Positions 6,071 to 61,432 of a stretch of DNA of 64,000 nucleotides are shown here, in pieces. The stretch comes from Fistulifera solaris. Its lineage: Eukaryota. Each line of letters starts with the position of its first letter. Position 1 is the stretch's first letter. The notes under the pieces were generated by a model. It saw only the letters and a program-made list of their open reading frames with translations, was not told where the DNA came from and did no database searches. A program made the position numbers and the translations under genes. Location of the stretch: contig AP026127.1 of assembly GCA_030295235.1 (NCBI GenBank), positions 806,001 to 870,000 of the forward strand, read 5' to 3'.

Positions 6071-6330
6071 GGAGACCTCTCTTGGTATCGCGCGAAATGA
6101 TCGCGCACTTTCGAATTCGATTGTTTCCGAGAAAAATAAAGAAAAGATCCGCCGTTTCGCGGCAAAACACACGTGAAATGAAAAAGACATCTTCTTTCTT
6201 TATCATTTAAGAGCACGGTTGTTGCTGCTAAACCTCGTATCTAGAGTAATTTCATTCAAAAAGTCCAGCATAGTCCCCATTAGCGACGACAGAATCTACA
6301 GATCCCTCAACGAGACCGCTCGATGCACAG

Positions 6331-11944: not shown

Positions 11945-11989
<45 letters not shown>

Positions 11990-12633
11990 TCATCATCATC
12001 ATCATCATCATCGTCGTCGTCGTCGCTGTCCTCCTCTTCTTCATCGTCGTCATCGTCGTCATCATCCTCGGGGGCTGCCATTCGCAACAAATTTTTGCCA
12101 CCGCTGCGCTGCATGACGCGAACAGGTTGATGATTCGCGGTAACGTCCTCTATTTCATCATCGTCGTCGTCGTCCTCCAAGGCGTCTTCATCGGAATCTG
12201 CTTCTTCCTCGTCATCATCTTGTCCACTGTAATGTTCACAAGAGGTAATCTTTTAGAGCCGGTGTGAAACAAACAACAGTTCCTGCTTTACTATACTTAC
12301 GGAGGATGCAAATATTTGCCGCCATGCCCTCGCAGTTGTTTCCCTCCTCCTCTAGCTTGAGAAATCGAATAGTTCTGTTCTTCTTCCTCCGACGATTCCT
12401 CTTCGTCGTCCTCCAGCGGACGAAGACCTTTGCCACCACTGACGCGCAATTGCTTGCCGCCGCCGTAGGGGTCGTTGTTATTGTTGTTGCTGCTACTACT
12501 AGGAGCTGTGCGTCGAATATTCGGCTGAGAATCGCAGAAAAGAGGCGTTAGTAAACGATCTTTCTTATCCCCGAAAGAAAAAGAGCCATCAGCGATGCTA
12601 TCTCGCTCTTCCCGTTCTCTTTCTTCTTACCAT
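9211..12633 (-). CDS. RTF1: RTF1 (PAF1 complex, Plus3 domain) with long acidic N-terminal extension; introns 12525-12630, 12227-12300, 10930-10999; frameshift near 10485
   Basis: HMD-like DEADRKHLDSLPELEREAILAERF and Plus3-like LKVTIPRRRLARWCNEPFF..ECFVRLFIG..YRLCEI..Y..TNKTLRLKFG..F.M..ISD. C-terminal FNPYARRRVKP. Canonical splice sites keep the frame from the ATG at 12633. Confidence 0.88.
11948..12025. repeat. (TCG/TCA)n trinucleotide microsatellite encoding poly-Asp in RTF1
   Basis: Direct reading of tcgtcg...tcatca; translates to a run of about 25 Asp on the minus strand. Confidence 0.95.
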
Positions 12634-14814: not shown

Positions 14815-15805
14815 TTCGTCTCGGGACTGTAGTTAATCAAGTGGCGTTTTCGGTAAACCTACAGTCTACGTCATAGTAAGTTTCGATTTCTTCTTAGAAA
14901 ACATTTCACGCGGCTTAGTTTATGATAAATCGCCGGAAACAGCAACACCAATACCTTTCTAGGCATATGTTAACTTCAACATAAATTGATCGGTCGTAAA
15001 CGGTGCCTAGGATGATTTTATTGGTTGCAAACATTTGCATCAGTTTCGTCGCAGGACTGTAATTAATCGAGTCGCGTTTTCCGTAAACCAACAGTCTATG
15101 TGATAGTAAATTTTGATTTCTTATTAGAAAACATTTCACGCGGCTTAGTTTATGATAAATCGCCGGAAACATCAATACCAATACCTTTCTAGGCATATGT
15201 TAACTTCAACATAAAATGATCGGTCGTAAACGGTGCCCAAGATGATTTTATTGGTTGCAAACATTTGCATCAGTTTCGTCGCAGGACTGTAATTAATCGA
15301 GTCGCGTTTTCCGTAAACCAACAGTCTACGTCATAGTAAGTTTCGATTTCTTCTTAGAAAACATTTCACGCGGCTTAGTTTATGATAAATCGCCGGAAAC
15401 ATCAATACCAATACCTTTCTAGGCATATGTTAACTTCAACATAAAATGATCGGTCGTAAACGGTGCCTAGGATGATTTTATTGGTTGCAAACATTTGCAT
15501 CAGTTTCGTCGCAGGACTGTAATTAATCGAGTCGCGTTTTCCGTAAACCAACAGTCTACGTCATAGTAAGTTTCGATTTCTTCTTAGAAAACATTTCACG
15601 CGGCTTAGTTTATGATAAATCGCCGGAAACATCAATACCAATACCTTTCTAGGCATATGTTAACTTCAACATAAATTGATCGGTCGTAAACGGTGCCTAG
15701 GATGATTTTATTGGTTGCAAACATTTGCATCAGTTTCGTCGCAGGACTGTAATTAATCGAGTCGCGTTTTCCGTAAACCAACAGTCTACGTGATAGTAAG
15801 TTTTG
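14815..15805. repeat. tandem satellite, ~4.3 copies of a 230-bp AT-rich unit
   Basis: Anchor ggactgt recurs at 14824, 15054, 15284, 15514 and 15744 (exact 230-bp period). Internal copies are nearly identical; the left edge is more diverged. Confidence 0.97.
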
Positions 15806-20200: not shown

Positions 20201-23200
20201 CGAGCTTGGGATACTTCAGCTAGAAAAAGATAACGCTCTCATAGCAAGCTCGCGGTCCTCAGTTATACGGGAAGCAGAACCGATTGCTTTGATCGAGGGG
20301 TAATTGACCAACGGTACATGATTTGTATTTGAAGGTACGTTTGCAATTGAATCGTACCATGGGACTAACATGTCACTTCTTTCTGCTGAATGTTCTCTGC
20401 ACCACAAAGTACAGAGTGACGCAGAAAGGTCGAACCCATTTATAATCAAGTAATCTCGCAATCGCAACATAGCACCTTTCGCGCACGCTCGTGCGAACAA
20501 TCCCTCTGCAGTCAAGCAAGGTCCAATACCAATCGACAATCTTGTCGCATCAGCCATGATGTCATCGAAGCACTCCGAGTCACAAGCATTTTCATCTAAA
20601 AGCATTCTAGCCTGGAGTGACAAACGAAAAGAGAGAATCACGAGATCCCATCCACCTTCCGGGCAGCGACCAAGTTCACTTAGAGAGGAAACCAGCCTAG
20701 CCAAACCGCTCTTGGGAATTGGTGTGTATTCGCAAACTTCATATATCTCGAGCATTATACGCAATAACTCCCCAAAAAAAAGATTTCGAAGACGAAGCAA
20801 TCAAAGCGTGAATGTTCTTGTTAAGCAAGCAAGACAACACCCTTTCAAAACAACATGCAGGTTCTTGGATGCCACCTCGGCCAGCTTCTTTCTGGATCTG
20901 TTTATACAATAGAAAAAGAAGAGCGATGTACTCTAGATCTTGTGCTGATTCTGATGTTGTGCTAAATCCTCGACCGTCAATTTGAAATAAATAAGAAAGC
21001 ATATTCTCCAACCCGAAACGGCTATCATCAGAAAGACCGGCCTCTTCAGAGCAAAGTGTTTGTCGACCGAGCAGCATCTCAACTACATCAACTGGAGCAG
21101 TAATAGATTTCCATGAGATTGACGGTCCCTCTGTAACATTTCCCAATTCACGTAAACACTGAATAATTTTGAAGACAAGTCGCAAACGACGTGGCGACTG
21201 AAACCTTTCTTCGACATGATCGGCGTGAAATATCCCGTTCGACAAAGTACTGAGAAACTTGAAGAAAGCCAACCAACAGTCACCACTCAACTCCTTGCGA
21301 CTTAGAGTGCTTTCTTCTGCATCCTGCAGGAGTGCCATAATAAACGCCACTGTAGCCTCTTCCCATCGATTCATATTCATGTATATCGAGCCAATTGCAC
21401 TCCACCGAAGCGAGACTTGAAATTGAATGCCAGAACCGCCATTTTGTGACAAGTGCATGAAAAGTCGGACAGCATGCAACATGGAGTCAACTGCTCCATC
21501 GGTAACACCCTTGTCGAGCAGATTTTTTCCATGGAGAGCGAATAGCTGCGGAGCTGTCAGTATAGTCCATCAGACAAGCAAACCTTACAACAATTCTACT
21601 CACTTTTGCAGCTCTTTCTCGAAATTTTGGGTATTTTTCAAACTTCTTGCTACAAAGCTCCGTCACAACATCCATTAAGCAAGATCTGACAACATCAGTG
21701 CGATACTCGACAAAATCCAGTCTATGATAGGCTGCGATTGATTTAATGATACAGTCACAGCCAAAGTCCCACACGCTAGACCTTTTCGGACCTTCCGTGT
21801 CGGCAAAGATTACTTTAGCCATCGACCAGTAACATCTGTGCAGCAGCTGCGCAGCGAGAAATAAAGCTGGATGTGACTTTGGATTTTGATCATCGCCTTC
21901 GGCCGCTTTGGAAATCATTCGATTCAAGGAGGATTTGTACAAAACCTTGAACCAGAATTGAAGCCCGACACTAGAGTTACTGGGGTCCGCCGAAAGCATA
22001 GTATCAAATTTTTGAACTGCGTCCATCAAGAAGTTAACGACTCTCGTGTCTTGATAAGAAGCGTTCTCATGATCGATCGCCTTCACGACGTCAAGGGCAA
22101 GAAAAACGATAGATAGAGCAGCGAAGTCGAACGTAGCCCTGACTTTGGAGGTACCATTAAACTGGAATCGGTAGGGCAAAATACGAAAGATGCACGGGTC
22201 GGCGATATTGTCGGCATGTTTCTTCTCGTGGTGGTCCACCGGACCGCCATAAAGCGCTCGATATGCACAGAATTCGAAATAGCTTGCTATTTCAGCACCA
22301 TCAAAGAGTTTCACTAAGGAATCAAACTCTCCACCAACATCCTCTAGAAACATTGTCAAGCTCGTAGTATTGGTAGCTAATTGATCACATACCACCAGAA
22401 TGGCCTTTGATGCTTGCGAGCACGCACTTGCGAAGTGAGTACGAAACAACTCCTTTTCTGTTCCTTTCATCTCGTCTGCGTTTCGAGGGATAATACCAAG
22501 TAAGCAGGAAATCGAGTGGTGCCTTAAAGTTAAAACGGCATCAGGACCAATCGTCTCCTCATAGCCATCGACGCAATCCCACAAAACTTTATGCGCCCGT
22601 CTCGACAAAGCAATCGAGTCTTTCAAAGATCCTTCTGTGCCAAGCGCGAGAAGTTGCGATTGCCAGGGTCGACCAACAGTACAGATTAGGTTGGCGGATA
22701 GATGAAACATTTCAAGTGGCGTCTGTTTCTTTGCAACAGGCAAGCATCGAAGCAGTAACTCCTCTTCCGTGCGAACTGGTGCGTCATTTGTATGCCAGAG
22801 CGGTAGAAGAAAAACTCTGGAGCAGGAAAGAATCGAATGATTCCCAATGGTCAGCAGTTGCTCTTTGGACAATGACAATGGTAACGATTCTTTGCAGTGT
22901 GGTCTCGGTACCGGAAAGACTAATTGGATCGTCTTCAAAGCATTGTGGTCCACGACGAACTCGGAGCAACACCTCCTCAGTACAAGTCCCAGAGTTTCAA
23001 GTGCCAACACGGTGTAGTAAGCAGCTAATCGACTGACTGAGTGTTTTTGATGAGCAATGGTTTCCAAGGTAGAAATAATGTGATAGAGAAGTTTGATGAT
23101 TGCATCTGGTTTCTGTACCGTTTCCCCCTCCGCTGCTACAATGGCTCGAATGCCGTGGATAGCAGCACGAAGCATTCGAAAGGCTACTTTGTTGTCCTTC

Positions 23201-23519
23201 GCAACCGTCGCCTCCTTGACTAGCTTTCGACACGAATTCAACAATGGGACGGAAAGCTTCTTTTGAGTAAAACGTTGTCTTTGGGACTCTTCATCGTGAA
23301 GGATAGCTGAACGAGGCCTTCAATCAACCCCTCATGGCCCATCCAAATCGCATTGTCAGGTATATTGGTCATTGAATCTCTAATTTTAATAGCCATTGTT
23401 TGTAATTCTTCTTGAGAAAGGTTTGTGCGGCAATTCCCTGTACTCGACGACTTCGAGCGATTTGACGTTGCATTTTCCTTGTCGTCTTGGGTCCATGAAA
23501 CTTCCTGCATCAAATCCAT
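17294..23519 (-). CDS. ESP1: separase (peptidase C50) with long helical N-terminal region; split into several ORFs by frameshifts and probably short introns
   Basis: Catalytic motifs LLYIGHGGG and ILMGCSSG, plus YLLAGAPCVVGNLWDVTDGDID, GCAPVCYGFP, LILDENLQRFPFE and WWELRQQLD. A chain of same-strand ORFs extends to ~23519. The exact exon structure was not resolved. Confidence 0.88.
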
Positions 23520-31899: not shown

Positions 31900-32410
31900 A
31901 CTCAAATAATCTACCTGGTAACGAGTAATGACTGCTATAATGAGTAATGACTAATGACTACTCCGAAATATTTTAGTTGGGCGTTAGCGTGAGGGCTTAC
32001 GGCTTGAAATAATGACGAACGGTGAATGGCTAATGGCTAATGGCTAATGGCTATGCGCAATGCAAGAAGCCGAAGAACTTTATGAGGATCATGGATCATG
32101 CCTATGCGGTCATCATTGGTCATTTGATACTATGTAGGTTTCAAACTGTTCTAAGTTCAAACATGGTCCATGTTCTGCATTTCTTGTTTAGATATCATTT
32201 CGTAATTCTTGTTTCTTGTTCTCCCTCCGAATCGGATGATACGCGAATACCTATAATCTAATCAGCTAACAGCGAATGGAAGCTAATATTTTGGTTTCTT
32301 GCCATCTTCGAACTTCAACGTTCGATGTACATAAAGAACGGTACAATAGAATAGTCTTCGTCATTCGTCAACGTTCACAGTCAGCAGTCAGCAGGCATGA
32401 GCCATGAGCA
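31900..32410. repeat. zone of heterogeneous ~7-bp tandem duplications
   Basis: (aatggct)4 at 32025-32052, plus (taatgac)2, (ggatcat)2, (cagtcag)2 and (catgagc)2. Confidence 0.85.
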
Positions 32411-32523
32411 CAAGAAGATCAACCGCATTACATCGATCGCATATCGCATCCATCATCGCTATCAAAATCACTATCAGCAACGCACTGTCAAGAGGAAGAA
32501 CGTCAGTGCAGTTAACATATAAC

Positions 32524-41433: not shown

Positions 41434-42165
41434 TTAAGCGATCGAATATTGATAGCGTCGAAGCGAGGTGGACATTTTCATTGGCTTACGCTTGGGAGAT
41501 TTTTCTGGCATCAAGCGGTTGTGAGCTTTGTGCGAATCTTGCTGAGACCCACTTTTTACTGGAAGGGCAAGCGGCCGCGAGTCAGCGCACCAGTTGCTTG
41601 TATCGTGCGGTAAAGGTGATCCTTTTCGCAAAGGGGAGAAAGACCTCAGTGGAGTCCAGCTGGGGGCCCTCGACGATGATTGAGAATGCGACGACCAACG
41701 GCTTGTTTCTGCATCGAGTACAGGTTTCGCTGCTGTCCCTGTTTTGTTCCGAATCGTCGGTGCTGTACCTTCTTCTGATGGCTCGAGAGGATGTTGATTC
41801 ACAGCACCTTTTCGACTGGGCATTTTCGGAGATTCTCTCGGTGTTCGTTCCGCCCAAGAGTCCCAGCGGCTCAATGTACGCTGTTGGTGTGCTTTCGCTT
41901 TAAAACCTTGAGATAAGCAGTGTCCGGGGAACGTCACATTTCTGCGCAAGGATGTAAGGACCGCGTCATCACAACTGTCAGGCGCAGCCCACGACGAAAA
42001 CGAACTAGAACTATAGTGTGACGATGAAACATCGCTAAGCTTTCCCGAACTTTCCAATAAGATCGCTATTGTCTGCATTGGCATGCTTTCGCAGCTCTTA
42101 CTTCGATCGTGTTGTTCAGGCATGGGGTTTGTATCGTCGTTTGGACTGAGGCATTCCAGTTCCAT
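41434..42165 (-). CDS. Ser/Pro/Arg-rich RW-motif protein, paralog 1 of 5
   Basis: Shares SCES..LLESSGKLSD, SRWDSWAERTPRESPKMP and SRWSSHS with neighbouring ORFs. Confidence 0.75.
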   Translation of the reverse strand: MELECLSPNDDTNPMPEQHDRSKSCESMPMQTIAILLESSGKLSDVSSSHYSSSSFSSWAAPDSCDDAVLTSLRRNVTFPGHCLSQGFKAKAHQQRTLSRWDSWAERTPRESPKMPSRKGAVNQHPLEPSEEGTAPTIRNKTGTAAKPVLDAETSRWSSHSQSSSRAPSWTPLRSFSPLRKGSPLPHDTSNWCADSRPLALPVKSGSQQDSHKAHNRLMPEKSPKRKPMKMSTSLRRYQYSIA

Positions 42166-42649
42166 GAGGTCTGTTTGTTTTCGCGTTTTAACGAATTAAT
42201 TCCAGCGTTGTTTGCCTTGGATGCAAACAAGCGATGAAAGAGTGGATAATGGAAGCGACAGGTGAGAGCGAGATGTGAGAGGATGCTTTATGCCTGTGTT
42301 CCATGTTCCATGTGTTTTCGTTCTTATTCGTAGAGTACGTAGTACTTCGATCTTCGATCACCAAGCTATGAGTCTTTGTAGTACTAATGCAAATGCCCAA
42401 TACCCGCCACACTTAGGACCAAAGTCCAAAGTGGCGTCTCGACTTATAGCTTTACAACGTACCCAATAAATCATTTAAGTCCAAGATAAAATTGAAAGCC
42501 TTAAAGAAAATAGAAGGTACAGTGTGTGTGAGCGAGGATTTAACGACTACAGAGTATTTTCTACGTGGAAGTGACATCAAACAGCGGCGACGTGCGGACG
42601 TACAGCGGAGGCGGTCATGGGCAAATGTTAGGGCGCTTTACCAGGTATG

Positions 42650-43090
42650 GTTAGTTCTGGATCTCTCGTCTCTCGTCTCTCTCTCTAACAAAATTAACGA
42701 TTGCCGAATTGGACACGTGACATTGACACGTACCGACTACCGACTATTGAAACATTGAAACTTTAGTTAAAGACTGTGACTACGGACTAAGGACTACGGA
42801 TTACGGATTACGTCAGGGAGAAGGGAGAACCTTAATCTTTATTAAAGCAAGCTGTTCGGGTTCGGGAAGAACACATTCAACGCTTAATGACCAACGGCGA
42901 CAAGTGACAAGTAGAGCGTCTCTTGTCCCCTGCCCCCTGCTCCTTGTTGCTGTTTGTTTTTGGTATCGGTACTCTGCCGTCACTGCCCTATGGTTGCGAC
43001 ACCCATCCTCTTTGACGCTTTCAACGACTACAAATTTATGAAGATAGCAGAAAAATCAAACGTCCATCGTAAATCGTAAAACGTCAAAGA
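42650..43090. repeat. zone of heterogeneous ~7-bp tandem duplications
   Basis: (tctctcg)2+, (taccgac)2, degenerate (gactacg/gattacg)5, (agggaga)2, (gacaagt)2 and (atcgtaa)2. Confidence 0.8.
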
Positions 43091-43638
43091 GTGACCAAAA
43101 TAGTCGATCTATGCAAATCATCTTCTCATTCTCCTTGAAACAATACGTAGTTTGTGACAAAGATTTCATCCGAATGTCGGCAATCATCATCCTCAACGTC
43201 TTTAGATGAAAGAACACGAGGTATGTCTTGTAATTTTTGATCATCCTGTTTGGCTGCTGAGAGCGATTGCAGGAATAATAATCAGATGATGTTAGCTCGG
43301 AACCATATTCCAAGACTGGATTTGGTCCCGAAACGCCCCATCTTCTGTGCTCCCTCCGCCAAAACCATAAGACGACGGTAACGCTAAAACACAGCGCTAA
43401 CCTTTTAACAACATACCGACGACCATAAAAAAAAAGAAATACTCCGTAATAATAATGATTGCTGCTCGACCTTCCCTGGTAGCGACTTTGCAATATTGAA
43501 GCCTACTGTTTTGACAGACAATGAAAGATGTCTTACTTTCTTTTTCAGCGGAACGTGCCCCTTGTCACGACAGAAGCAAGCGCAATTTGGGTTGAATCGG
43601 CAACGCGGCGTTTTGGCCGGACCAATCCACAATGAGTC

Positions 43639-44646
43639 TTATGAACGTTTTATTCTATAAAACGGAGACTCGAGTCTGCGACCGCAGTCGCACTTAATTT
43701 GGCCTTGCAATGTGCGTCGGGAGTAACTATCGACGCGCCGAGCATTGACTTTACCGAATGGAGTTAAATCCTTGATTGATGTACTTTCGGGGTCGTTGTC
43801 TGGCGGCAGGAGTGTGTAAACTTTGCAAGACTGCCACTTTTCACTCGGCAAAGGAATGGTTTTTGAAGCACGAGAAGTATTCGGCTGTAAGTAGTTCGGT
43901 TTGTTCGCGGTCGTAGCATTCGTTTTTCGTGAAGGTGAGGGAGACCTCTGAGTCAAAGTCGGGGCGCATGAAGTTTTAAAAGGCGAAGACCATCGACCCG
44001 TCTTTTCGCTGGATAATGTTTCTCCTGAGATGTCGTTTGTGTTCAGAGTCACAGATGCTTTATTTTCTCTTGCTAGTGCTGTCAAATCATGTCGTCGACT
44101 GGGCTTCTTAGGAGACTCCATTGGTGTTCGCCCTGCCCAAGATTCCCAACGATTTGATACGCGCTGCTGATATATAGGAGAAAAATGGTGGCTCGGAATA
44201 TTCGAGTGTTTGCGCAACGAGGAAAATATTACATTTTCGCAGTCATCAGGAAGAGCGAAGGACGTGAGAGAGTCGAAACCGTAGATTGAAGATGACAAAT
44301 CGCTTAGCTTTCCCGAGCTGTCCAGCAGTGCTGTTATTGTTTGCACCGACAAGCTTTCGCAGCTGTCGACTCGATGAAGCTGTCGTAGCATGCGTTTTTT
44401 TTGTTCAGCAACGATTTTTCGGACTGCTATATTGCTTCGGGGCAACGTCGTATCGTCTGCGAATGATCGCTTGACTTTGTTTTTTTTACCGCTGTCGTTG
44501 TTCGGGACAAGTCGAAAGTATTTGAGAAAATTTGTATCGTTATTTCGAAGGTAGATTATGATGTGTTCTGTTAGTTTCTTCCTCTTAGAGTCAAATGAGA
44601 GCTGACGCCCGACGCAGTCGATTGATTTTCGTAGGTCACAGATCAC
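43639..44646 (-). CDS. Ser/Pro/Arg-rich RW-motif protein, paralog 2 of 5 (start uncertain)
   Basis: HRVDSCESLSVQTITALLDSSGKLSDLSSS, NRWESWAGRTPMESPKKPSRR and GRWSS. Confidence 0.7.
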   Translation of the reverse strand: MICDLRKSIDCVGRQLSFDSKRKKLTEHIIIYLRNNDTNFLKYFRLVPNNDSGKKNKVKRSFADDTTLPRSNIAVRKIVAEQKKRMLRQLHRVDSCESLSVQTITALLDSSGKLSDLSSSIYGFDSLTSFALPDDCENVIFSSLRKHSNIPSHHFSPIYQQRVSNRWESWAGRTPMESPKKPSRRHDLTALARENKASVTLNTNDISGETLSSEKTGRWSSPFKTSCAPTLTQRSPSPSRKTNATTANKPNYLQPNTSRASKTIPLPSEKWQSCKVYTLLPPDNDPESTSIKDLTPFGKVNARRVDSYSRRTLQGQIKCDCGRRLESPFYRIKRS

Positions 44647-44679
44647 AGAAGATGATAAATTTTTGTGAGATGTACTGTC

Positions 44680-45020
44680 TTCCTACTTGAAACTTGAAAC
44701 TGTTTTTCGATGTGCGATCTATTGTAGGGAATTCGACATTCGACAATGTTTGACTCTTATCGTCGTCAAAATTCCCTACAATTTACAGGTCATCGTCGTC
44801 GTCGGAGCCACATCCCACCATCATTTTTTACTCTCGATTTCCAACAACAACACCATCGTCGAAAAGGCTGAAGGTGTAATGGTGTACTTGTAAGCCTCCC
44901 GTCTCCCGTCTCCCGTCTCCCGTCTCAACTTTTTTGCGGTAAAGGCGTCACAAAAACGAAGAAACTCAAGACCGCCGCATTGGGTTTGGACTTAAGATCT
45001 AAGACTGACTAAGATCAAGA
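44680..45020. repeat. zone of ~7-bp tandem duplications
   Basis: (cttgaaa)2, (ctcccgt)4 near 44896-44925, and taagatctaagact-type degenerate repeats. Confidence 0.75.
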
Positions 45021-45353
45021 CTTTAAGCTGAAACCAGCTTTGTTCTCTGTTTCGGATTTTTTTCGTTTGGGATAGCACCCTCGAAATTGATTAGGGTTCG
45101 AGGGCTACGGGAAGCCATGAAAACCAAATGAGGTAGGCGTAGGCAAGACAAGACCTAAGCACTACCGGTACCAGGTACACGTAACCAAATTAGAGAGTCT
45201 TCACCAGCCTGACGTGCGAGCGTTGGAGTAACACTGGTGCCCATGCATTTATGCTAGGTCCCGATGAACAGCTAACTAAGCTTGGGGCCAATTCTCTTTT
45301 CACGCCGTAAGAAATATTAGTGTTTACAATATAATTATTACAGCTTGAATTGG

Positions 45354-46082
45354 TTAGCTGTCATGGGAAGAACACCATGGGATGGAAAAATTGTGCGACA
45401 TTGCCGAAGACGATCGCGAGTCGCATGTACTACAGGTGAGGTTTGATCCTTTGAATGAAACGTCGGTTAGAGGCATTTCACGACCACACACTTTCTCGGT
45501 TCGTTGTTCGTCTTGTTCTGTGTTCGAGTGATTCCGCTTTGGTGACAAAGTCCTTCGAGGAGACGAAGTAAGTGTACGAGACGATTCTGAATGCGAAAAC
45601 CACCGACTATTCTCTTTGACGAGAAGCCGCCTTCTTGGCCCTTCAACTCCCGTCGAGGGCGTCGATATAGTTATTTCCCGAGGAAACTCAACTTTCGCCA
45701 CAATATCTCTTCGTTTTGGCTTCTTTGGCGACTCTTTAGGCGTGCGCTCGGCCCAAGAGTCCCATCGGTTCATTTCCATGGCTCTTGACCTTGAAGATAA
45801 ATGGTGTTCCGGTGACAAAGAGCTTATCCGTGAAGTAACTGATTCATTATCACTGCTCTCGGGCGCGAGCGAAGTCGAAGACGATGTTAGACTGCAGAGT
45901 GACGATGATAAATCGCTTAATCTTCCCGAGCTGTCCAGATTTGTTGCTATTTTTTGAGTCGACAAGCTTTTACAACTCTCAACTCTGATTATTTGTATTG
46001 ACGGTTGACCTTGTCTTGACTTCCGAGCCAACATGATCCTACGGATCGGCATCGTTTCATGAATGAGTAATCTGCCAACCAT
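45354..46082 (-). CDS. Ser/Pro/Arg-rich RW-motif protein, paralog 3 of 5
   Basis: RVESCKSLSTQKIATNLDSSGRLSDLSSS, NRWDSWAERTPKESPKKPKRR, SRWFSHS..SPRR and C-terminal NFSIPWC. Confidence 0.75.
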   Translation of the reverse strand: MVGRLLIHETMPIRRIMLARKSRQGQPSIQIIRVESCKSLSTQKIATNLDSSGRLSDLSSSLCSLTSSSTSLAPESSDNESVTSRISSLSPEHHLSSRSRAMEMNRWDSWAERTPKESPKKPKRRDIVAKVEFPREITISTPSTGVEGPRRRLLVKENSRWFSHSESSRTLTSSPRRTLSPKRNHSNTEQDEQRTEKVCGREMPLTDVSFKGSNLTCSTCDSRSSSAMSHNFSIPWCSSHDS

Positions 46083-46399
46083 TCTGATACCTGATGATAT
46101 GATTAGCTTGGTAGAAGCGACGATCGAATAATAAAAATGGAGGAGTCAACCGATGGAGCAAAGAAGCAAAATTTCGACAAAGAACAGGTGTTTGGTGTTT
46201 CTCGTTCTTGCAATCCCTACTCGGTTGACTGCTCTATGCTCTATACAATCCTTTATGTAGTAAGTCTGTGCAGAACTCCAGACGCTTGATAAACAATCTA
46301 CGTAAGGAGAGAGGGGGAATTAATCGCGAATCGCGCGCACGAGGCTCCGCCCTCCGCCCCCAAGTGTAATTTATCCGGGGAAGGTGGAAATGTAGAGAT

Positions 46400-47900
46400 A
46401 AAAGATAAAAGAGACTATAGAAATTAGCAAGCAGTAATCGCAGTAGTCGGCTTCTTGTCTTATAATTCTTTGTTTTGTTCTTCGTTCTTGGCCTCGGCGT
46501 CGGCACTCGGCACACGGCACTCCGCACTCGGCACTTGGCACTTGGCACTCAGAACTCAGAACTCTATTAGAACTCACAATTCACAATTCTTTCACAACTC
46601 ACAACTCACAACGCAACACATAACACATAACAGGGCAAACAACAAACAACGGAAAGAAAAGACAAAAATGGTCTTAAGCCCGTACGAATGTACTCCGAAA
46701 TGTGTAAGTGTAAGGCTATTCGGAGTTCGGAGTTGCTTGTTGCTTGTTGCATAGTCAATTGCCAATTTCCAGTTTCCAGTTTGCAGTTGCCCGTGCAACG
46801 TGCAATAACTAATGAGCAAGACGCGAGACAGATGCGAGCTTTATTCATTTTCATTTTCGGGGTGAAGTACTCTAAGTTCTAAGTACACAGTACACAATCT
46901 CCAAATCACAATTCACAATTCACTCGAAGGCTCGATGGTCGAAGGTCGAAGGTCGAAGGGTCATTTTTATTTGGTCATTGAGAAGACGACTCCTTTACTC
47001 TTTACTCTCAACTATTTTGCAAATTCCCCTAGAAAATGTCTTGCATCTTGCATCTTTCATCTTCTCTCCTCTCCTCTCTCTTCTCTCTTGCATTTTGCCT
47101 TGCCCTCTTGCTCTTGCCTCCTGCTCCTTTCTCTTAGAACTAAACTAGTAGGGCTACGCCCTTTGAGTATCATAGTCTTGCTAGCACCCAAAATGTAAGG
47201 AACTCTTGCAAGAGCAAGAGACAAGAGAAGAGAGAAGACGATGATGATTACTCCGTATCATGTATCATCTAACATCTAACTACGGACTCTAGAGTAGTGA
47301 CTTTTCAACCTCTAGATACTTTATTGCCTCGACCTCTCTCTAGACTCTAGACTAGAGAGAGAGACTGTGAAAAGTAAAGAATACTCCCGACTCCCGACCC
47401 CAAGCGAGGGAGGGCGAGGTACGGTACCAGGTTGCAGCTTGCAGGTCGCGGAGCTTAGCCTCGCGTCGGCGGAACAAAATAATGTGATGATTAGTTTAGG
47501 GTTCCTTACAAATTATTACACTGTAACCTTTTCGGCTCGGTCAACAAGTCGGAATACTCCAAGCTCCAAGAGTCTCAAATAGTTACAGCTTACAACCAAG
47601 GATGAACTCGAGGCTATAAAACTATACAAAGTACAAAGTACAAAATAGCTTTTACCACTCATCATCCATCATCCACCACCCGTCATCAAGAACAACTGCG
47701 TAAGGTTACGTGATGAGGAAGGAGGAAGTTACTTGTACAAGTACAAGTACCCGGTGCGGCGAACAATTGCCAAAAGACGATAGACTAGTCTATTGACAGA
47801 CGCCAAACGTCATGATTCATGATTTGATTAACTCCGTGAAATGTACGTAGGTCGTGATGTGGTTTTGTGTCATGTGCTTACGGCTTACGGTGACAAGACA
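46400..47900. repeat. large divergent intergenic zone saturated with different ~7-bp tandem duplications
   Basis: A ggcactc-type run of ~7 grading into (cagaact)2, plus (tcggagt)2, (ttgcttg)2, (tttccag)2, (gtacaca)2, (cacaatt)2, (ggtcgaa)3, (tcttgca)2, (gtatcat)2, (atctaac)2, (ctctaga)2, (ctcccga)2, (ctccaag)2, (tacaaag)3, (catcatc)2, (catgatt)2 and (gcttacg)2. Confidence 0.92.
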
Positions 47901-48024
47901 CTCTTCTAATCCGGTACTTGTATGCCTCTAGAGGCAAACAGGGTTCGAACTACGAAACATGTTTTGAAGCGCGAACTCTCAAATTGTCAAGTGCGGTGCG
48001 GAACACGAGAGATGATATCGGCGT

Positions 48025-49230
48025 ATGCACAATAAGCCCTTCAACAAACTATTTCCCTCCCTGATCTCTGATTCATTGTTTTACAACTCTCTTGCGAACA
48101 TGGCGAACAGGAGTGTTAATCTTCTTGACCAACCAACAACACAAACCCTGACAACAATAGCTGCAGCATCATGTTCAAATATTTTGAACAGTCAAAGCAT
48201 GAGAAATCAGGATTCTGTACCTCGAAGACCCCATCGAGCGCACAGCCCAGAGAGTAATCCGATGGGCGCAGCATTTCGGCCAAAGATAGGAAGGCCGACT
48301 TCACGCAGTACATCGGAAAACGTGAGTGATTTGTCGAATTCACACGGAAGTTTGAGCTCGATTTCCTCGTTTTTCTCCTCTACGGATGGCAGTGGTCCGG
48401 CATCGGCAGGAAGTAGTTTCAGCTCACTGAGCTCGCCGTTGCGTAAAAGGCTCTCCACATCATCGCGACTATCTCTATTTAGCGGCCAGCCACCAGGGAA
48501 AAAGAAGATTCATCGGAAAAGTGCAAAGAAAAAGCCACAACAGCTGAATCGTTGGGACTCCTCGGAAGAATGCAATTTGAAAGGATTGCCTCAGAAGCCT
48601 CGACGAGCCGACGCACCACAGCGGGTCGAGACAGCATCGCGTGGGCGAGATTTCGGAGCACCAGCACGAGGGCGATTGTATTCTGATGAAAGTGCAACCA
48701 GCCGATGGTCTTCGCATGTCAGCACTTCATCGCGTGATGTAACCGTTTCTCCCAGAAGAACTGGTTCACCTCGCAAGCCTTCTCGTCCTCCACTGATGGC
48801 GACACCGGATCTCCAATCGTCAAAGAAAAGCGAAACGCACTTTGAGAGAGAAATCGAGTTTCACCCCAATTTTATCAACAATTTTCGAAACGTCGATTCG
48901 AAGGTCCAATTCGCTGAACCAAACAACAATGGAGGTTCAACCGAACACCGTGCCGTCCTGTTCCGACAACCCAAAGCCTACAATTTGTTACTCTCCGAAT
49001 CTTCACACAGCCATCCTCCTGCTTTGATACCGCGACTTCCACCCTGGAATCCCAAAAACAACACCGATCCTGTTCATAAATTGAAATGTCCGTTCGAATG
49101 GGCCGAATCGAAGCGATCCATCGCCACAGCGAGTACGCGTGAATCGAGCGCATCTTCCGCTGCGTGTCCTGACTACTCCATTCCTTGGTTTGCTGCCCGT
49201 CGTCAGCAACAATCGAAATTCGGCCCGTAG
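48025..49230 (+). CDS. Ser/Pro/Arg-rich RW-motif protein, paralog 4 of 5
   Basis: QDSVPRRPHRAHSPE, LNRWDS..PQKPRR, SRWSSH..SPRR, RAVLFRQPKAYNL and RSIATASTRESSASSAACPDYSIPWF. Confidence 0.8.
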   Translation: MHNKPFNKLFPSLISDSLFYNSLANMANRSVNLLDQPTTQTLTTIAAASCSNILNSQSMRNQDSVPRRPHRAHSPESNPMGAAFRPKIGRPTSRSTSENVSDLSNSHGSLSSISSFFSSTDGSGPASAGSSFSSLSSPLRKRLSTSSRLSLFSGQPPGKKKIHRKSAKKKPQQLNRWDSSEECNLKGLPQKPRRADAPQRVETASRGRDFGAPARGRLYSDESATSRWSSHVSTSSRDVTVSPRRTGSPRKPSRPPLMATPDLQSSKKSETHFEREIEFHPNFINNFRNVDSKVQFAEPNNNGGSTEHRAVLFRQPKAYNLLLSESSHSHPPALIPRLPPWNPKNNTDPVHKLKCPFEWAESKRSIATASTRESSASSAACPDYSIPWFAARRQQQSKFGP

Positions 49231-51017: not shown

Positions 51018-51288
51018 AGTGTGTCGAGGCAAACTGTTTTGTTCTACAGCAAAGGCTTGGAGACAAGGGTTCAATTTTGAAGCTGATTTCGTCTATCTCT
51101 ATCTCGAACAAGTTTAGTTGTGATAAAGATGTAAATAGGAAGTTACGATTATCAATTATGAGCACTACATGCCGCCGTTACACCCGTAATGTCATTTCGA
51201 TTCGAAAGGCTTGACGAGAAAATAGCCATTTTTACATTCGTACCCGCATTCTTCAGATCGCGTAGGCATTTTACTAGGTCAGGATTAC

Positions 51289-51590
51289 CGTTTCCAGAGT
51301 ATCTGAAACGTCCACAGAATGTCTGTCTTGCCCAAAACAACGATTCCAGGATTTCTGGAACGCCGTCAAAATCTATGTCTGACCCAACACAACGATTCCA
51401 GAATTTTTGGAACGTCCACAAAATCTCTGTCTGACCCAAAAGAGCGATTCAAGAATTTCTGGAACGTGAATGAATCTCCGTGTGACTCAATTCACCGATT
51501 CCAGAATTTCTGGAACGTCCACAAAATCTCTGTCTGACCCAAAAGAGCGATTCCAGAATTTCTGGATCGTGAATAAATCTCTCTGTGACG
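51289..51590. repeat. tandem array, ~6 units of ~52 bp, each with a ttccaga-att-tctggaa palindrome
   Basis: cgattccagaatttctggaacg-like cores at ~51289 (degenerate), 51341, 51393, 51445, 51496 and 51548. Confidence 0.93.
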
Positions 51591-51708
51591 CGCTGCATTG
51601 CGACGAAGTCCTAGGCTCAGTTGTTTGTTCCTTTGTTTTGAACGATTATTGTTTCCTTCTTGTATAGTCCATCAATATCTGCATCCATTTCTCTATTATG
51701 GCGACAAA

Positions 51709-53073
51709 ATGATGGCTTCAAAAGGAAGTTTACAGCATGATCGGCGGCAAGAAATACGCAATATCGTCTCAATCGGAATCACCGTCGTTGCTTCGGCATC
51801 TACTTGGTTCTTCTTCTATTACCGACGCCAACAGCAAAAACGAATACGAAAGTTAGAGTCGCGACAAGAACCGACAAATTTTTCTTCTGCATACGAAAGT
51901 CTCATAGGGAATACTCCTCTCGTGAAATTGCCGCGACTGTCTCGCATCTTGCAACGTGATGTATATGTGAAAATGGAAAGCATGAATCCGGGAGGCACAG
52001 GCAAAGATCGAGCGGCATGGGCCATGCTACACGCGGCGGAACAAGAGGGAACATTACCACCGCCTATACAAGAACACAGCCATGAAATTAATCACGCAGT
52101 AACAACGAAAGCCCCCACTTACGTACCGCAAAATGAAACAGAACAAAGCTACGAGACTGCCATTTGGCAAGCTATGCGAGCATCCCGAACCGGTGGCTTG
52201 GTCGTGGAAGGGACATCTGGATCAACGGGCATTTCCTTGGCCACTTTGTGCGCCTGTCGGGGACATGCCTGTTTGGTTGTTTTACCGGATGACCAAGCGT
52301 ACGAAAAACAAAAGATTTTACAAACGCTTCAAGCTCATGTGCTCATCGTACCCAACGTTTCGATTTCCAACCCGAAACATTACGTCAATATTGCTCGTCG
52401 ACTGGCACAATACGCACGGAATCAAATGAATATACCTGCCGTCTTTGTGGATCAATTTGAAAATCAGGCGAATGTACAGTGCCATGCTCACGTAACGGGA
52501 CGTGAAGTACTAGCGCAATGTCCCACATTAGACGCCTTTGTAATGTCGGCCGGCACAGGAGGTACCTTGGCAGGTATTGGCACATTCCTGAGACAACATC
52601 GTCCTACTTGTCGCATAGTTTTGGTGGATCCGCCTGGGAGTGCCCTTTACAACAAAATTCAATACGGCGTGGCGTATACCACGGAGCAACAAGAACGTGG
52701 TCTTTTACGACATCGATACGATACTTTAGCCGAAGGCATAGGACTGGATCGTGTGACACAAAATTTGGCTTATGGTTTGGAATGCATCGACGAGGCCGTT
52801 CGGGTATCGGATCAAGATGCTGTAGACATGGCGCATTGGATGCTGCAGAACGAGGGATTGTGGGTCGGTTCGAGTTCCGCCATGAATGTCGTGGGCGCGA
52901 TCGAAACCGCCTGGAAGTTATCTCCGGGCTCGCGAGTTGTGACGGTGATTTGTGATTCGGGAAGTCGTCACTTGACGCGCTTTTGGAATCGTGATTTTAT
53001 CCTAGAGAGGGGTCTTCGATGGCCGCGCGATCAAGAAAAGGAGTTATTACCTGCCTGTCTAGAGCATCGGTAA
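51709..53073 (+). CDS. PLP-dependent cysteine synthase family protein (N-terminal TM, mitochondrial-type subfamily)
   Basis: Motifs LIGNTPLVKL, VYVKMESMNPGGTGKDRAA, VVEGTSGSTGISLA, DQFENQAN, SAGTGGTLAG, AEGIGLDR, EGLWVGSSSAMN and VVTVICDSGSRH. Confidence 0.93.
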   Translation: MMASKGSLQHDRRQEIRNIVSIGITVVASASTWFFFYYRRQQQKRIRKLESRQEPTNFSSAYESLIGNTPLVKLPRLSRILQRDVYVKMESMNPGGTGKDRAAWAMLHAAEQEGTLPPPIQEHSHEINHAVTTKAPTYVPQNETEQSYETAIWQAMRASRTGGLVVEGTSGSTGISLATLCACRGHACLVVLPDDQAYEKQKILQTLQAHVLIVPNVSISNPKHYVNIARRLAQYARNQMNIPAVFVDQFENQANVQCHAHVTGREVLAQCPTLDAFVMSAGTGGTLAGIGTFLRQHRPTCRIVLVDPPGSALYNKIQYGVAYTTEQQERGLLRHRYDTLAEGIGLDRVTQNLAYGLECIDEAVRVSDQDAVDMAHWMLQNEGLWVGSSSAMNVVGAIETAWKLSPGSRVVTVICDSGSRHLTRFWNRDFILERGLRWPRDQEKELLPACLEHR

Positions 53074-59849: not shown

Positions 59850-60770
59850 TGAGAATTGTGAGCTGAGCGCTGATCCGCCTCTCCCCATGAGCCCTGAGCG
59901 TTGAGCGTTGGTCATTGGTCATGCGGTCATGCGGTCATGCGGCATGCGGTCATGTTAAGTGGGCTTGGGGTTGTGAGTTGGGAGTAGTAGTAGTTGGGTT
60001 AAAAGCTAAGGGTATTTTGTAGACTTACAGTAGTAGAATGAAGAATGTAAAAGGTACGTAGTTCCAGGTAAAAGGTTTAAAAGCTAGAGAAGCGAGAAGC
60101 TCCAGGAACCAGGAACAAGAAACAAGAACAAGAAACAAGAACTGATCAGTGATCTGTAGACTGTAGACTACAGTAGCCGTGTTCTTTCCTTGGACTATGA
60201 AATAAGAAGTGTCATAAGGAGAAAGTAGTTCTTGACACTTGACACTTTGAAGCGAACAGTAACCATTAGGAATTAAATATTTAGTTTGTGTTTGTCGTCT
60301 AAAAAAAAAAAAATTAGGCATTAGGCCTATGTTCTATGTTCTATGTTACCTGTAGCCTGTAGCCTGCAGCTGTTAGCCCACAAAAGTCTACAAATAATTA
60401 CAAAATTAATCGATGATGGTTGAGGGATGAGGGATGAGAGCTGAGAACTGAGAAGCTGAGAGCTTATAGCTTATAGCTTATTGGCTTATTATTGCTAAGC
60501 GCTGCTGGTAAGCCTTATTGCAAGTATTTATTGGCTTTTAGCCGCTTTAGCTTCAACCTTCAACCAGCAACAAGCCACTATGCGAAATGCGAAAGCCAAT
60601 AGCCCCCACCAAAACTTCACAGCGTATAGCCCCGGCCGTCATCGTTGGCTGACGCTCGACGCCCAATGAAGACTGAAGACTGAAGACGACTATCAGGCAA
60701 AATACAAGCCAAAGATTGAAAATTTACTGTGTAGTCCGTTTACTCTAGAGAGACTAGAGACTTTCTCTAG
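59850..60770. repeat. zone of heterogeneous ~7-bp tandem duplications
   Basis: (tgagcgt)2, ggtcat(t/gc) run, (ccaggaa)2, (ctgtaga)2, (cttgaca)2, (ctatgtt)3, (cctgtag)2+, (tgaggga)2, (ctgagaa)2, (gcttata)2+, (cttcaac)2, (atgcgaa)2 and (gaagact)3. Confidence 0.9.
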
Positions 60771-61432
60771 AATGGTAAGAACTTTGTAAAACTACTCCGT
60801 ATTAGTTTGCATTTCTCTTTTTACAAATGAGTTTGTTCTTCACGAGCTTAAATCCCCGAATTGTGTTAGAGACAACCATTAATGCTCCTCGATACCTAGT
60901 CCATCAAATGGCGTTGAATTGGTTTGCCTTCTCCGCCATTTCAACGTCACCCATTTCTTTGCATTTAAAAGTGTGTTTGCTAGGAAACCATAGGCCATGG
61001 CGTCATCGAAATCTAGCACACTCTTATTTCAAGGTGTCGTCGACTAATAGACTGCGAATAATCCAGTTCCAATTTTTACCGGCGTCACAGGGTAACCTAG
61101 AAAAAATAGCCGTCTAGGGTTAACGCTGCCGGAAAAGTTCGATCGGCGTATCTCGATTACCGTGTACCCTGCTTCAACGGTTCAACATCCGCCTTATGGC
61201 AAATGAGTCTTGGCGGGAATGAATTGTGCGTCTGCCATCCCGCCCTGTACCTGCCTCGTACCGGTACCTGGTTGGTACGTTGGTACTGGTGGTAGGTTTA
61301 ATGGCGCCGCGCACGACGCACCTCTTGTTCATCATTACTCCGTATTTGTCATTTATTACAAAGAGGGAGGTAGCACTCTTGTCATTGTCATTGTATCTTT
61401 CGAGCAAGGAATTGGCGACGAAGACAATCCCA

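What the first reader, a model, noticed from the sequence alone, without database searches (positions are those of the whole stretch)
46400..47900. Intergenic DNA saturated with sequence-independent 7-bp tandem duplications
Seen: more than 20 different short units here are duplicated or triplicated head-to-tail (ggtcgaa, tacaaag, gtacaca, cacaatt, tttccag, tcggagt, atctaac, ctccaag, catgatt, gcttacg and others). Nearly all have period 7, with only a few of 6 or 8. Some runs drift from one heptamer into another (ggcactc to cagaact) while keeping phase. Established: ordinary slippage favours 1-4 bp units of a few sequences. Inference: a fixed length with arbitrary sequence points to a dedicated process, such as fill-in of 7-nt staggered cuts, footprints of an element with a 7-bp TSD, or a polymerase/repair pathway that re-copies 7 nt. 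I know of no described system that explains it.
Basis: partly seen in the sequence, partly recalled or inferred. Interest (0 to 1): 0.78.

Follow-up and report, generated by a model that had tools for sequence, protein, structure and literature searches.

The report
Exact 7-base duplication scars, diatom
Some stretches of DNA in front of genes in this diatom are crowded with dozens of unrelated 7-base words, each written twice in a row; they look like scars of one cutting-and-refilling process with a fixed 7-base offset, which I could not find described in print.

Summary
The 64-kb window, from a pennate-type diatom, holds 85 perfect period-7 tandem duplications against about 3.6 expected. Periods 8 and 9 give 5 and 1. 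Thirty start inside 46400-47900.

Seventy-seven lie in five non-coding hot zones totalling 4,755 nt. Only 4 fall in long ORFs, which argues against an artefact. Junctions are exact: 7-mers or longer recur at spacing 7 a total of 77 times, but 3, 1, 0, 2 and 0 times at spacings 8-12. Periods 6, 7 and 8 split 8:77:2.

A simulation of about 200 random 7-nt duplications plus about 0.2 substitutions per site reproduces the arrays and the in-phase drift.

I found no resident transposon, no transposase and no dyad target consensus. Twenty-two of 70 events have no flanking microhomology.

Best reading (0.5): breaks with a fixed 7-nt stagger are filled in and rejoined, which is target-site-duplication chemistry with nothing left inserted. 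The enzyme is unknown.

The decisive tests (haplotype indel spectra, whole-genome and cross-diatom counts) could not be run here.

Earlier reports of this scan describe the same pattern on two other pieces of this genome. Seven literature searches found no published description.

The parts
45950..47900 (.). Hot zone 4, which contains the finding. It is the spacer between two divergently oriented ORFs and holds 36 perfect period-7 duplications.
   Evidence: Event list. Lag-7 identity is 0.40-0.58 in the 250-nt windows from 46501 to 47750. TRF rows.
46500..46650 (.). Decayed heptamer tract that stays in one 7-nt register through different units (tcggcac, ttggcac, tcagaac, ... ctcacaa, cataaca, caacaaa). 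Old copies were blurred by substitutions and then hit again.
   Evidence: Sequence. Lag-7, lag-14 and lag-21 identity are 0.58, 0.44 and 0.35 in 46501-46750. The pattern is reproduced by the random-hit simulation.
31900..32500 (.). Hot zone 1: 8 perfect period-7 duplications, just upstream of the ORF whose first ATG is at 32404.
42200..43100 (.). Hot zone 2: 10 perfect period-7 duplications, upstream of the minus-strand ORF 41437-42195 (first ATG 42165).
44600..44950 (.). Hot zone 3: 4 perfect period-7 events including CTCCCGT x4.4, upstream of the minus-strand ORF 43642-44682 (first ATG 44391).
59850..60800 (.). Hot zone 5: 19 perfect period-7 duplications in the spacer between divergent ORFs (first ATGs at 59519 on the minus strand and 61301 on the plus strand).
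45357..46145 (-). Flanking ORF (263 codons stop to stop, no Pfam match). It bounds hot zone 4 on the left. One event (45973) lies in its 5' end.
48016..49227 (+). Flanking ORF (404 codons, first ATG 48025, no Pfam match). It bounds hot zone 4 on the right. The last event ends at 47890.
47053..47241 (.). Inverted repeat inside hot zone 4: a TC-rich arm at 47053-47117 and a GA-rich arm at 47208-47241. Both arms carry the same period-6 duplication as mirror copies (47105 and 47208).
   Evidence: I1-I3, and I13 at 13 nt, 100% complementary. The arm alignment was ambiguous.

Best explanation
The hot zones are piles of independent small insertions. Each insertion is an exact adjacent copy of 7 bases of whatever sequence was there. 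The most likely cause is a double-strand break whose two nicks are offset by a fixed 7 nucleotides. Both single-stranded ends are filled in and the ends are rejoined without loss. This is the chemistry that makes a target-site duplication, but nothing stays inserted. The ruler points to a dimeric transposase- or integrase-type enzyme. It could be a mobile element that inserts and later leaves cleanly, or an enzyme that cuts targets without stable insertion. It acts in certain stretches of 5' gene-flanking DNA. Shown here: the fixed length, the exact junctions, the arbitrary units, the clustering, the depletion from ORFs, and the finding that repeated random hits plus substitutions are enough to make the arrays and the in-phase drift. 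Inferred: the staggered break, the fill-in and end joining, the type of enzyme, and the link to open 5' chromatin. In the fitted model about 200 events account for about 1,400 of the 4,755 nt, so the process has lengthened these spacers by roughly 40%.
For: 1. Tight ruler. In the hot zones, perfect duplications number 14, 8, 77, 2 and 0 for periods 5 to 9. Across the window the period-7 count is 85 against 3.6 expected.
2. Exact junctions. Words of 7 or more bases recur at spacing 7 a total of 77 times against 0.25 expected, but 3, 1, 0, 2 and 0 times at spacings 8-12. So there is no filler and no ragged ends.
3. Arbitrary sequence. Fifty of 70 events remain after collapsing related units. The 27 unique-phase events show no consensus.
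4. Microhomology is not required. Twenty-two of 70 events have no extra flanking identity. The excess of longer runs is accounted for by lag-7 identity of 0.43 in the flanks, which means events sit inside older tracts.
5. A random-hit model fits. About 200 duplications plus 0.2 substitutions per site give run-length bins 23.7, 18.6, 28.6, 15.3, 8.2, 3.4, 6.3, 5.7, 0.4 and lag-7/14/21 identity 0.42/0.30/0.26. The observed values are 17, 9, 22, 21, 10, 6, 11, 5, 2 and 0.43/0.32/0.27. No slippage-type tail of long arrays is needed.
6. Real biology. Eighty-one of 85 events lie outside ORFs of 150 codons or more, 3.16 against 0.10 per kb. Older copies carry substitutions.
7. Events lie 5' of likely start codons, while the putative 3' flanks in the same spacers are empty. 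Many DNA transposons insert there (recalled).
8. Precedent. Fill-in and NHEJ of staggered breaks makes duplications as long as the stagger: Top2 gives 1-4 bp (10.1101/2020.05.03.075358, abstract), and breaks with 3' overhangs are filled in by Pol alpha-primase (PMC8355091, abstract).
Against: No enzyme or element was identified. The window has no transposase, integrase or nuclease ORF. TIR pairs flanked by 7-bp repeats number 2 against 1.6 by chance, and both lie inside a palindromic satellite. Known cut-and-paste elements usually leave mixed footprints (extra, changed or missing bases; recalled), whereas these junctions are uniform. A 7-nt complementary overhang would be expected mostly to re-anneal and ligate without a scar, so a pure nuclease model needs frequent cutting. 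The weak site preference (log-likelihood ratio 52.5 against an L-matched null of 41.7, sd 4.5; 0 of 40 nulls reach it) is not dyad-symmetric as a dimeric transposase target usually is. Run lengths are shifted upward relative to the uniform model: L=7 is 31% of events against 46-53%. Some use of microhomology cannot be excluded. Only about 5 of roughly 16 upstream regions are hot, and I cannot say why. No comparison of haplotypes, strains or de novo events was possible, so 'insertion' is inferred from the product alone.
Confidence: 0.5

Rival explanations
1. Re-copying linked to replication, without a double-strand break. A nascent 3' end or an unprocessed Okazaki flap realigns 7 nt back and 7 bases are copied twice. 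This would be a form of microhomology-mediated tandem duplication, or polymerase slippage, with an unexplained 7-nt ruler.
For: Run lengths are longer than a uniform random-hit model predicts: L=7 is 22 of 70 against 46-53% simulated, and L8/(L7+L8) is 0.49 against 0.33. The weak motif is translational (W before each junction) and not dyad-symmetric. No element or transposase is in the window. MTDs are widespread and depleted from coding DNA (PMC13167724, abstract).
Against: Twenty-two of 70 events have no flanking identity, and only 17 of 70 have 3 nt or more. In de novo MTDs, 70% have arms of 3 bp or more and 13% have none (PMC13167724, passages). The excess flanking identity is explained by embedding in older heptamer tracts: lag-7 identity in the flanks is 0.43, and it is no higher next to the run than further away. 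No slippage or flap process known to me has a fixed length. The copy-number distribution is steep (70 events below three copies, 5 at L 14-20, 2 at L 21 or more) and matches independent hits.
Confidence: 0.2
2. Ordinary micro- or minisatellite arrays, or selected regulatory heptad repeats in promoters.
For: The events lie in 5' gene-flanking DNA. A few units reach 3 to 5 copies.
Against: There are more than 50 unrelated units, and most have exactly two copies. There is no shared motif. Slippage favours short units and gives long tails, but here only period 7 is enriched about 300-fold in the hot zones. A binding-site explanation would need dozens of different factors that all prefer 7-nt spacing.
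Confidence: 0.05
3. An artefact of sequencing, polishing or assembly.
For: The reads behind the contig could not be examined. Only two public runs hold any of the stretch, and only as contigs.
Against: Density is about 30 times lower in long ORFs than outside them. An error process would not know about ORFs. Older copies carry substitutions and form decayed in-phase tracts. One 262-nt contig of run X2 matches 47105-47366 with no difference, including 5 period-7 events, though that run may not be independent of the source. Earlier reports of this scan describe the same pattern on other pieces of the genome (unchecked notes).
Confidence: 0.03

Closest known systems
Target-site duplications and excision footprints of DDE cut-and-paste transposons with 7-bp duplications, for example Galileo of the P superfamily (PMC2775673, passages read)
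   Same: A direct duplication of fixed length (7 bp) is made by filling in a staggered cut. The length tolerance is about plus or minus 1. Sites lie in non-coding DNA near genes.
   Different: Here nothing lies between the two copies. No resident element or transposase is in the window. There is no consensus like Galileo's GTAGTAC and no dyad symmetry. The junctions are uniform, unlike typical mixed excision footprints (footprint behaviour is recalled).
Topoisomerase II-dependent de novo duplications made by non-homologous end joining (10.1101/2020.05.03.075358, abstract read; PMC8795545, search listing only)
   Same: Short unique segments are duplicated in tandem, with arbitrary sequence and a length set by the enzyme's stagger. 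The route is fill-in and end joining.
   Different: Top2 gives 1-4 bp; here the length is 7 (8:77:2 for periods 6:7:8). No known topoisomerase has a 7-nt stagger (recalled). Dependence on NHEJ is untested here.
Small tandem duplications made by CST-guided Pol alpha-primase fill-in at breaks with complementary 3' overhangs (PMC8355091, abstract read)
   Same: This is a route from a staggered break to an exact tandem duplication. It shows that 3' as well as 5' overhangs can end as duplications.
   Different: That work used engineered breaks of chosen offset. It supplies no natural source of a fixed 7-nt offset.
Microhomology-mediated tandem duplication, MTD (PMC13167724, abstract and passages read; 10.64898/2026.02.28.708716, passages read)
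   Same: De novo tandem duplication of single-copy DNA, neutral outside genes and depleted from coding sequence. It can seed longer arrays.
   Different: MTDs depend on flanking arms (3 bp or more in 70%, none in 13%) and have no fixed unit length. Here 17 of 70 events have 3 nt or more, 22 of 70 have none, and one length dominates.
Intergenic heptanucleotide repeats of bacteria, such as cyanobacterial STRR (recalled); one example turned up here in L013/L017, a Prolixibacteraceae MAG
   Same: Period 7, intergenic.
   Different: The bacterial kind uses a few unit families in longer arrays. Here dozens of unrelated units are mostly doubled, in a eukaryote.

Membership tests
TSDs or excision footprints of a DDE cut-and-paste transposon with a 7-bp TSD | Direct duplication of a fixed short length of target DNA | tested here: met
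   Periods 6:7:8 = 8:77:2 in the hot zones; 85 against 3.6 expected in the window.
TSDs or excision footprints of a DDE cut-and-paste transposon with a 7-bp TSD | Resident copies: terminal inverted repeats bounded by the duplication | tested here: not met
   Two TIR+7-bp candidates against 1.6 in simulations, both inside the 68-bp palindromic satellite at 5.7-6.0 kb. This covers 64 kb only, so the rest of the genome is not excluded.
TSDs or excision footprints of a DDE cut-and-paste transposon with a 7-bp TSD | A transposase gene of a family with 7-bp TSDs in the genome | not testable with these tools
   No transposase domain in 59 ORF translations of the window scanned against Pfam. No whole genome is held. 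Unchecked scan notes list piggyBac, mariner, Harbinger and a hAT MITE elsewhere in the genome.
TSDs or excision footprints of a DDE cut-and-paste transposon with a 7-bp TSD | Target-site consensus, usually dyad-symmetric (Galileo: GTAGTAC) | tested here: not met
   No consensus in the 27 unique-phase events. EM over phase and strand finds only a weak, non-dyad preference (LLR 52.5 against 41.7, sd 4.5).
TSDs or excision footprints of a DDE cut-and-paste transposon with a 7-bp TSD | Footprints with residual, altered or missing bases at the junction | tested here: not met
   Spacings 8-12 hold 3, 1, 0, 2 and 0 repeated 7-mers against 77 at spacing 7. Inverted 7-mer pairs number 10 against about 2.7 expected.
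Microhomology-mediated tandem duplication (MTD) | Most events flanked by microhomology arms of 3 bp or more, and few with none | tested here: not met
   Seventeen of 70 have 3 nt or more and 22 of 70 have none, against 70% and 13% in PMC13167724 (passages). The flank context explains the modest excess.
Microhomology-mediated tandem duplication (MTD) | Broad range of unit lengths | tested here: not met
   A single sharp peak at 7.
Topoisomerase II / NHEJ de novo duplications | Duplication length of 1-4 bp, equal to or below the 4-nt Top2 stagger | tested here: not met
   The length is 7. Period 4 is not enriched in the window (223 against 190.8).
Topoisomerase II / NHEJ de novo duplications | Dependence on the NHEJ pathway | not testable with these tools
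   This needs genetics in the organism.
Microsatellite or minisatellite slippage arrays | A few motifs, many copies, and a long tail of copy number | tested here: not met
   Seventy of 77 hot-zone events are below three copies. Fifty distinct unit groups remain after collapsing related ones.

The most novel reading that the evidence does not exclude
Diatoms of this lineage have an endogenous enzyme, such as a domesticated transposase or another dimeric nuclease, that makes breaks with a 7-nt stagger in the accessible chromatin of particular promoters. Filling in and rejoining these breaks inserts 7 bases each time. This would be a lineage-specific mutational process, running at roughly a quarter of the local substitution rate, that steadily lengthens and rewrites promoter DNA without any mobile element being involved.
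Probability: 0.2. Interest if true: 0.85.

Novelty: new variant of a known kind. Interest (0 to 1): 0.68.

Why it matters
If the reading holds, this is a clean mutational signature: one length, exact junctions, any sequence, and enough events to make up about 30% of some promoter regions. It would point either to an unrecognised enzyme activity in diatoms or to a transposon that leaves unusually tidy scars. It gives a countable marker for dating and comparing non-coding DNA between diatom haplotypes. It offers a source of promoter length variation in an ecologically important group. It is also directly testable with mutation-accumulation lines, end-joining mutants and break mapping. More generally, it shows that the initial doubling which seeds tandem repeats can be dominated by a single enzyme-set length and not by microhomology.

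Tried and rejected
1. Whole-genome count: no genome is held for this window.
2. Reads: only two runs hold a small share of the stretch, both as contigs. Apart from one 262-nt piece, the pieces laid were 28-47-nt low-complexity matches. No indel polymorphism could be read, and uncovered parts say nothing.
3. Orthologous spacers: the metagenome scan with the neighbouring cysteine synthase returned 15 loci at 23-54% identity, with no close relative and no second haplotype. Indels could therefore not be polarised.
4. Signal in relatives: L001-L010 show period 7 at 9 against 2.6 expected, but period 6 is equally raised (34 against 8.9). I treat this as a hint only; L007 has 4 events in 5.7 kb. L011-L015 are not enriched (5 against 3.6). 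L013 is a bacterial contig.
5. The scans of genome contigs and viral contigs gave only bacterial, archaeal or giant-virus contigs.
6. Junction microhomology: the upward shift of run length looked significant against a uniform model but is explained by the lag-7 context of the flanks, so it is left open. In period-6 events the mode is L=7 (1, 4, 1, 1, 1 for L6 to L10), as a 7-nt fill-in joined on 1 nt would predict. But n is 8, and two of the events are mirror copies of one.
7. Target motif: the first collapse of related units was too strict and left 11 of 70 events, with no signal (21 of 30 nulls reached the observed value). The milder collapse kept 50 and gave a weak signal.
8. Aligning the two arms of the inverted repeat at 47053-47241 to read indel lengths: the alignment is ambiguous in low-complexity sequence, with a 27-nt gap.
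9. The small palindrome at 44708-44795 has no clear 7- or 8-bp flanking duplication by eye. I rejected it as a MITE candidate.
10. tRNA and Rfam scans of the window found nothing, so there is no tRNA- or snRNA-targeting element.
11. The Daphnia tandem-repeat survey that includes Thalassiosira gives no per-genome figure for 7-bp units in the passages seen. Its additional files were not opened.
Full report
**What the window is.** The window is gene-dense eukaryotic DNA at about 45% G+C. Its cysteine synthase (51589-53073) has its best named relatives in the pennate diatoms Nitzschia, Cylindrotheca and Pseudo-nitzschia, at 52-57% identity, and the protein itself lies on a 70,004-nt contig. The other ORFs are ordinary housekeeping genes: pantothenate kinase, mitochondrial carrier, GH72, Rtf1 Plus-3, separase, TraB, PCC, an alpha/beta hydrolase, JmjC, eIF3j, D-Tyr-tRNA deacylase, PP2C and a protein kinase. 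None of the 59 ORF translations scanned has a transposase, integrase or nuclease domain. There are no tRNA genes and no Rfam matches.

**Checking the observation.**
- I counted maximal runs with s[i]=s[i+k] of length at least k, keeping only primitive units. The window then has 85 perfect period-7 duplications against 3.6 in second-order Markov simulations. The other periods are k5 72/50.3, k6 41/12.0, k8 5/0.6 and k9 1/0.5.
- Thirty of the 85 start inside 46400-47900.
- The excess begins exactly at a match-run length of 7. At period 7, observed against simulated counts are 27/2.2, 23/0.5, 10/0.2 and 6/0.0 for L=7 to 10. At L=5 they are 54/43.8.

**Extent, and whether it is an artefact.**
- Seventy-seven of the 85 events lie in five zones totalling 4,755 nt: 31900-32500, 42200-43100, 44600-44950, 45950-47900 and 59850-60800.
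- In these zones, identity at lag 7 is 0.40-0.58 per 250-nt window, against 0.26 for the whole window. Lags 5, 6, 8 and 9 stay at background.
- Eighty-one of the 85 events lie outside stop-to-stop ORFs of 150 codons or more, which is 3.16 against 0.10 per kb. An error process would not avoid reading frames, but selection against 7-base frameshifts would.
- Many copies also carry substitutions, which an artefact would not produce.
- One 262-nt contig of a public run matches 47105-47366 without a difference, and this stretch includes five of the events. That run may not be independent of the source, and the rest of the read evidence was uninformative.

**Anatomy of the events.**
- *The ruler is tight.* In the hot zones, perfect duplications number 14, 8, 77, 2 and 0 for periods 5 to 9.
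- *The junction is exact.* Words of 7 or more bases recur 77 times at spacing 7 (0.25 expected) but 3, 1, 0, 2 and 0 times at spacings 8-12. Spacings 14 and 21 are raised (11 and 6) because of arrays. There is no filler between copies.
- *Inverted copies are rare.* I found 10 inverted 7-mer pairs with loops of 0-7 nt, against about 2.7 expected.
- *The units are unrelated.* Fifty of 70 events remain after collapsing units within one mismatch, or within two mismatches when they lie within 60 nt of each other.
- *Site preference is weak at most.* The 27 events with a unique phase show no consensus. An EM search over phase and strand finds only a weak, non-dyad preference of roughly S-W | n-n-T-C-n-n-W | not-T. 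Its log-likelihood ratio is 52.5 against 41.7 (sd 4.5) in nulls matched for run length, and 0 of 40 nulls reach it. That is about 0.3 bit per event.

**Arrays and in-phase drift need no separate mechanism.**
- I simulated random exact 7-nt duplications and point substitutions, applied in random order to Markov sequence trained on the cold non-coding DNA of the window.
- About 200 duplications with about 0.2 substitutions per site give run-length bins (L5, 6, 7, 8, 9, 10, 11-13, 14-20, 21 or more) of 23.7, 18.6, 28.6, 15.3, 8.2, 3.4, 6.3, 5.7 and 0.4. Lag-7/14/21 identity comes out at 0.42/0.30/0.26.
- The observed values are 17, 9, 22, 21, 10, 6, 11, 5 and 2, with identity 0.43/0.32/0.27.
- Triplications and longer arrays thus occur at about the rate expected when new hits fall inside old ones. 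A tract such as 46500-46650 keeps its register because every insertion is 7 nt long.
- In this model about 1,400 of the 4,755 nt were added by the process. That is roughly one 7-nt duplication for every three or four substitutions.
- The fit is not perfect. There are fewer L=5-6 remnants and more L=8 and L=11-13 runs than simulated.

**Microhomology.**
- The share of events with no flanking identity (L=7) is 22 of 70, or 31%, against 46-53% in uniform simulations. At most 4 of 150 simulations were that low, for any of the four parameter sets.
- This could mean that junction microhomology is used. However, the flanks 2-15 nt beyond the events already have lag-7 identity of 0.43 (0.26-0.28 at other lags), and it is no higher next to the run than further away.
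- So events sit inside older heptamer tracts, and that alone predicts about (1-0.43)^2, or roughly 0.32, with no extension.
- I therefore leave microhomology open. A strict requirement is excluded, because the class with none is the largest single class.
- In published microhomology-mediated tandem duplications, arms of 3 bp or more make up 70% of de novo events and arms of 0 bp make up 13% (PMC13167724, passages). Here the figures are 24% and 31%.
- Period-6 events have their mode at L=7 (1, 4, 1, 1, 1 for L=6 to 10). A 7-nt fill-in joined through one shared base would give this pattern. But n is 8, and two of the events are mirror copies on the arms of one inverted repeat.

**Where the hot zones lie.**
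- Using first in-frame ATGs as rough gene starts, all five zones lie 5' of genes. Two are divergent spacers (45950-47900 and 59850-60800). Three lie upstream of single genes.
- The putative 3' flanks in the same spacers (43100-43640 and 44950-45356) are empty.
- Only about 5 of roughly 16 upstream regions are hot. Several cold ones are occupied by other repeats: a 68-nt palindromic satellite at 5.6-6.1 kb, a 230-nt satellite at 14.8-15.8 kb, and a 52-nt repeat at 51.3-51.6 kb.
- The gene models are crude, so this part is inference.

**Is there an element?** TIR pairs (12 nt, up to 2 mismatches, 40-4,000 nt apart) bounded by identical 7-mers number 2 against 1.6 by chance, and both lie within the palindromic satellite. 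The small palindrome at 44708-44795 shows no flanking duplication. So this 64-kb window contains many scars and no candidate agent.

**Mechanism.**
- A fixed length with a tolerance of about one base, exact junctions, arbitrary sequence and no need for microhomology together describe what happens when a break with a fixed stagger is filled in on both ends and rejoined. This is how target-site duplications arise.
- It is also how trapped topoisomerase II produces 1-4-bp duplications through end joining (10.1101/2020.05.03.075358, abstract). Breaks with 3' overhangs can reach the same outcome through Pol alpha-primase fill-in (PMC8355091, abstract).
- I therefore take a 7-nt staggered break with fill-in as the best explanation, at confidence 0.5, and a transposase- or integrase-type dimer as the likeliest kind of enzyme.
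- I cannot tell whether it is a mobile element that inserts and then excises cleanly or an enzyme that cuts without integrating.
- The clean-excision version sits uneasily with what I recall of excision footprints, which are mixed. It also lacks a consensus such as Galileo's GTAGTAC (PMC2775673, passages).
- The main rival, at 0.2, is a replication-linked re-copying process. It has no known source for the ruler.
- Ordinary satellites or regulatory repeats (0.05) and artefact (0.03) are unlikely.

**Relatives and prior knowledge.**
- Loci around cysteine-synthase relatives at 38-54% identity (L001-L010, 34.9 kb) have 9 period-7 events against 2.6 expected (0 of 40 simulations reach this). Period 6 is as enriched there (34 against 8.9), so this is only a hint.
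- L007 has four events in 5.7 kb with the same texture. L013, which carries a heptamer array, is a Prolixibacteraceae contig and belongs to the bacterial kind of heptamer repeat.
- Seven full-text searches found no description of such scars in diatoms or elsewhere. The library holds open-access papers and preprints only.
- Earlier reports of this scan describe the same pattern on two other pieces of this genome and reached a similar description (e1-7530454 and e1-7529114). I used them as leads. My counts, controls and simulations are independent of them.

**Verdict.** This is a real, strong and clean signature of a fixed-length insertion process in diatom non-coding DNA. Its enzyme is not identified. 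It works like target-site duplication without an insert. It fails the membership tests for transposon footprints as far as they could be run in 64 kb, and it fails those for microhomology-mediated duplication, Top2 duplications and satellites. I class it as a new variant of a known kind, with interest 0.68.

Noticed in passing
window 5579-6074: Tandem array with 68-nt and 137-nt periods (7.4 copies, 81% matches) built around the palindrome TGGTCCAGAAAATCTGGACCA, in the divergent spacer between the mitochondrial-carrier and GH72 genes. A related unit with the palindrome TTCCAGAATTTCTGGAA forms a 52/103-nt array at 51287-51589, just upstream of cysteine synthase. Neither array carries any 7-bp duplication.
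   Followed up: partly
window 14815-15803: Satellite with a 230-nt period, 4.3 copies, 96% identical and without indels. It is young DNA in an intergenic spacer and has no 7-bp scars, which fits the idea that scars accumulate with age.
   Followed up: no
window 11948-12060: A run of about 38 TCG/TCA triplets inside the long minus-strand ORF 10999-12252. It probably encodes an acidic low-complexity tract.
   Followed up: no
window 47053-47241: Inverted repeat with a TC-rich arm and a GA-rich arm (26 nt at 85%, and a 13-nt core at 100%) inside the hot zone. The left arm is about 27 nt longer, and both arms carry the same period-6 duplication as mirror images.
   Followed up: partly
window 59917-59954: The only longer period-8 array, GGTCATGC x4.9. 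It sits among period-7 events of overlapping sequence (TTGGTCA, CATGCGG).
   Followed up: no
window 17297-23319: The separase gene (Peptidase_C50) is spread over at least six overlapping minus-strand ORFs. This implies short introns or frame breaks. None of the junction regions carries a 7-bp duplication.
   Followed up: no
L013 13140-13205 (same sequence as L017, a Prolixibacteraceae MAG): Bacterial intergenic heptamer arrays: CCCGTCT x2 and x3, and GTCTTCG x5. This is the known bacterial kind of heptanucleotide repeat. One of its units, CCCGTCT, is by coincidence a rotation of the CTCCCGT unit of the diatom array at window 44896.
   Followed up: no
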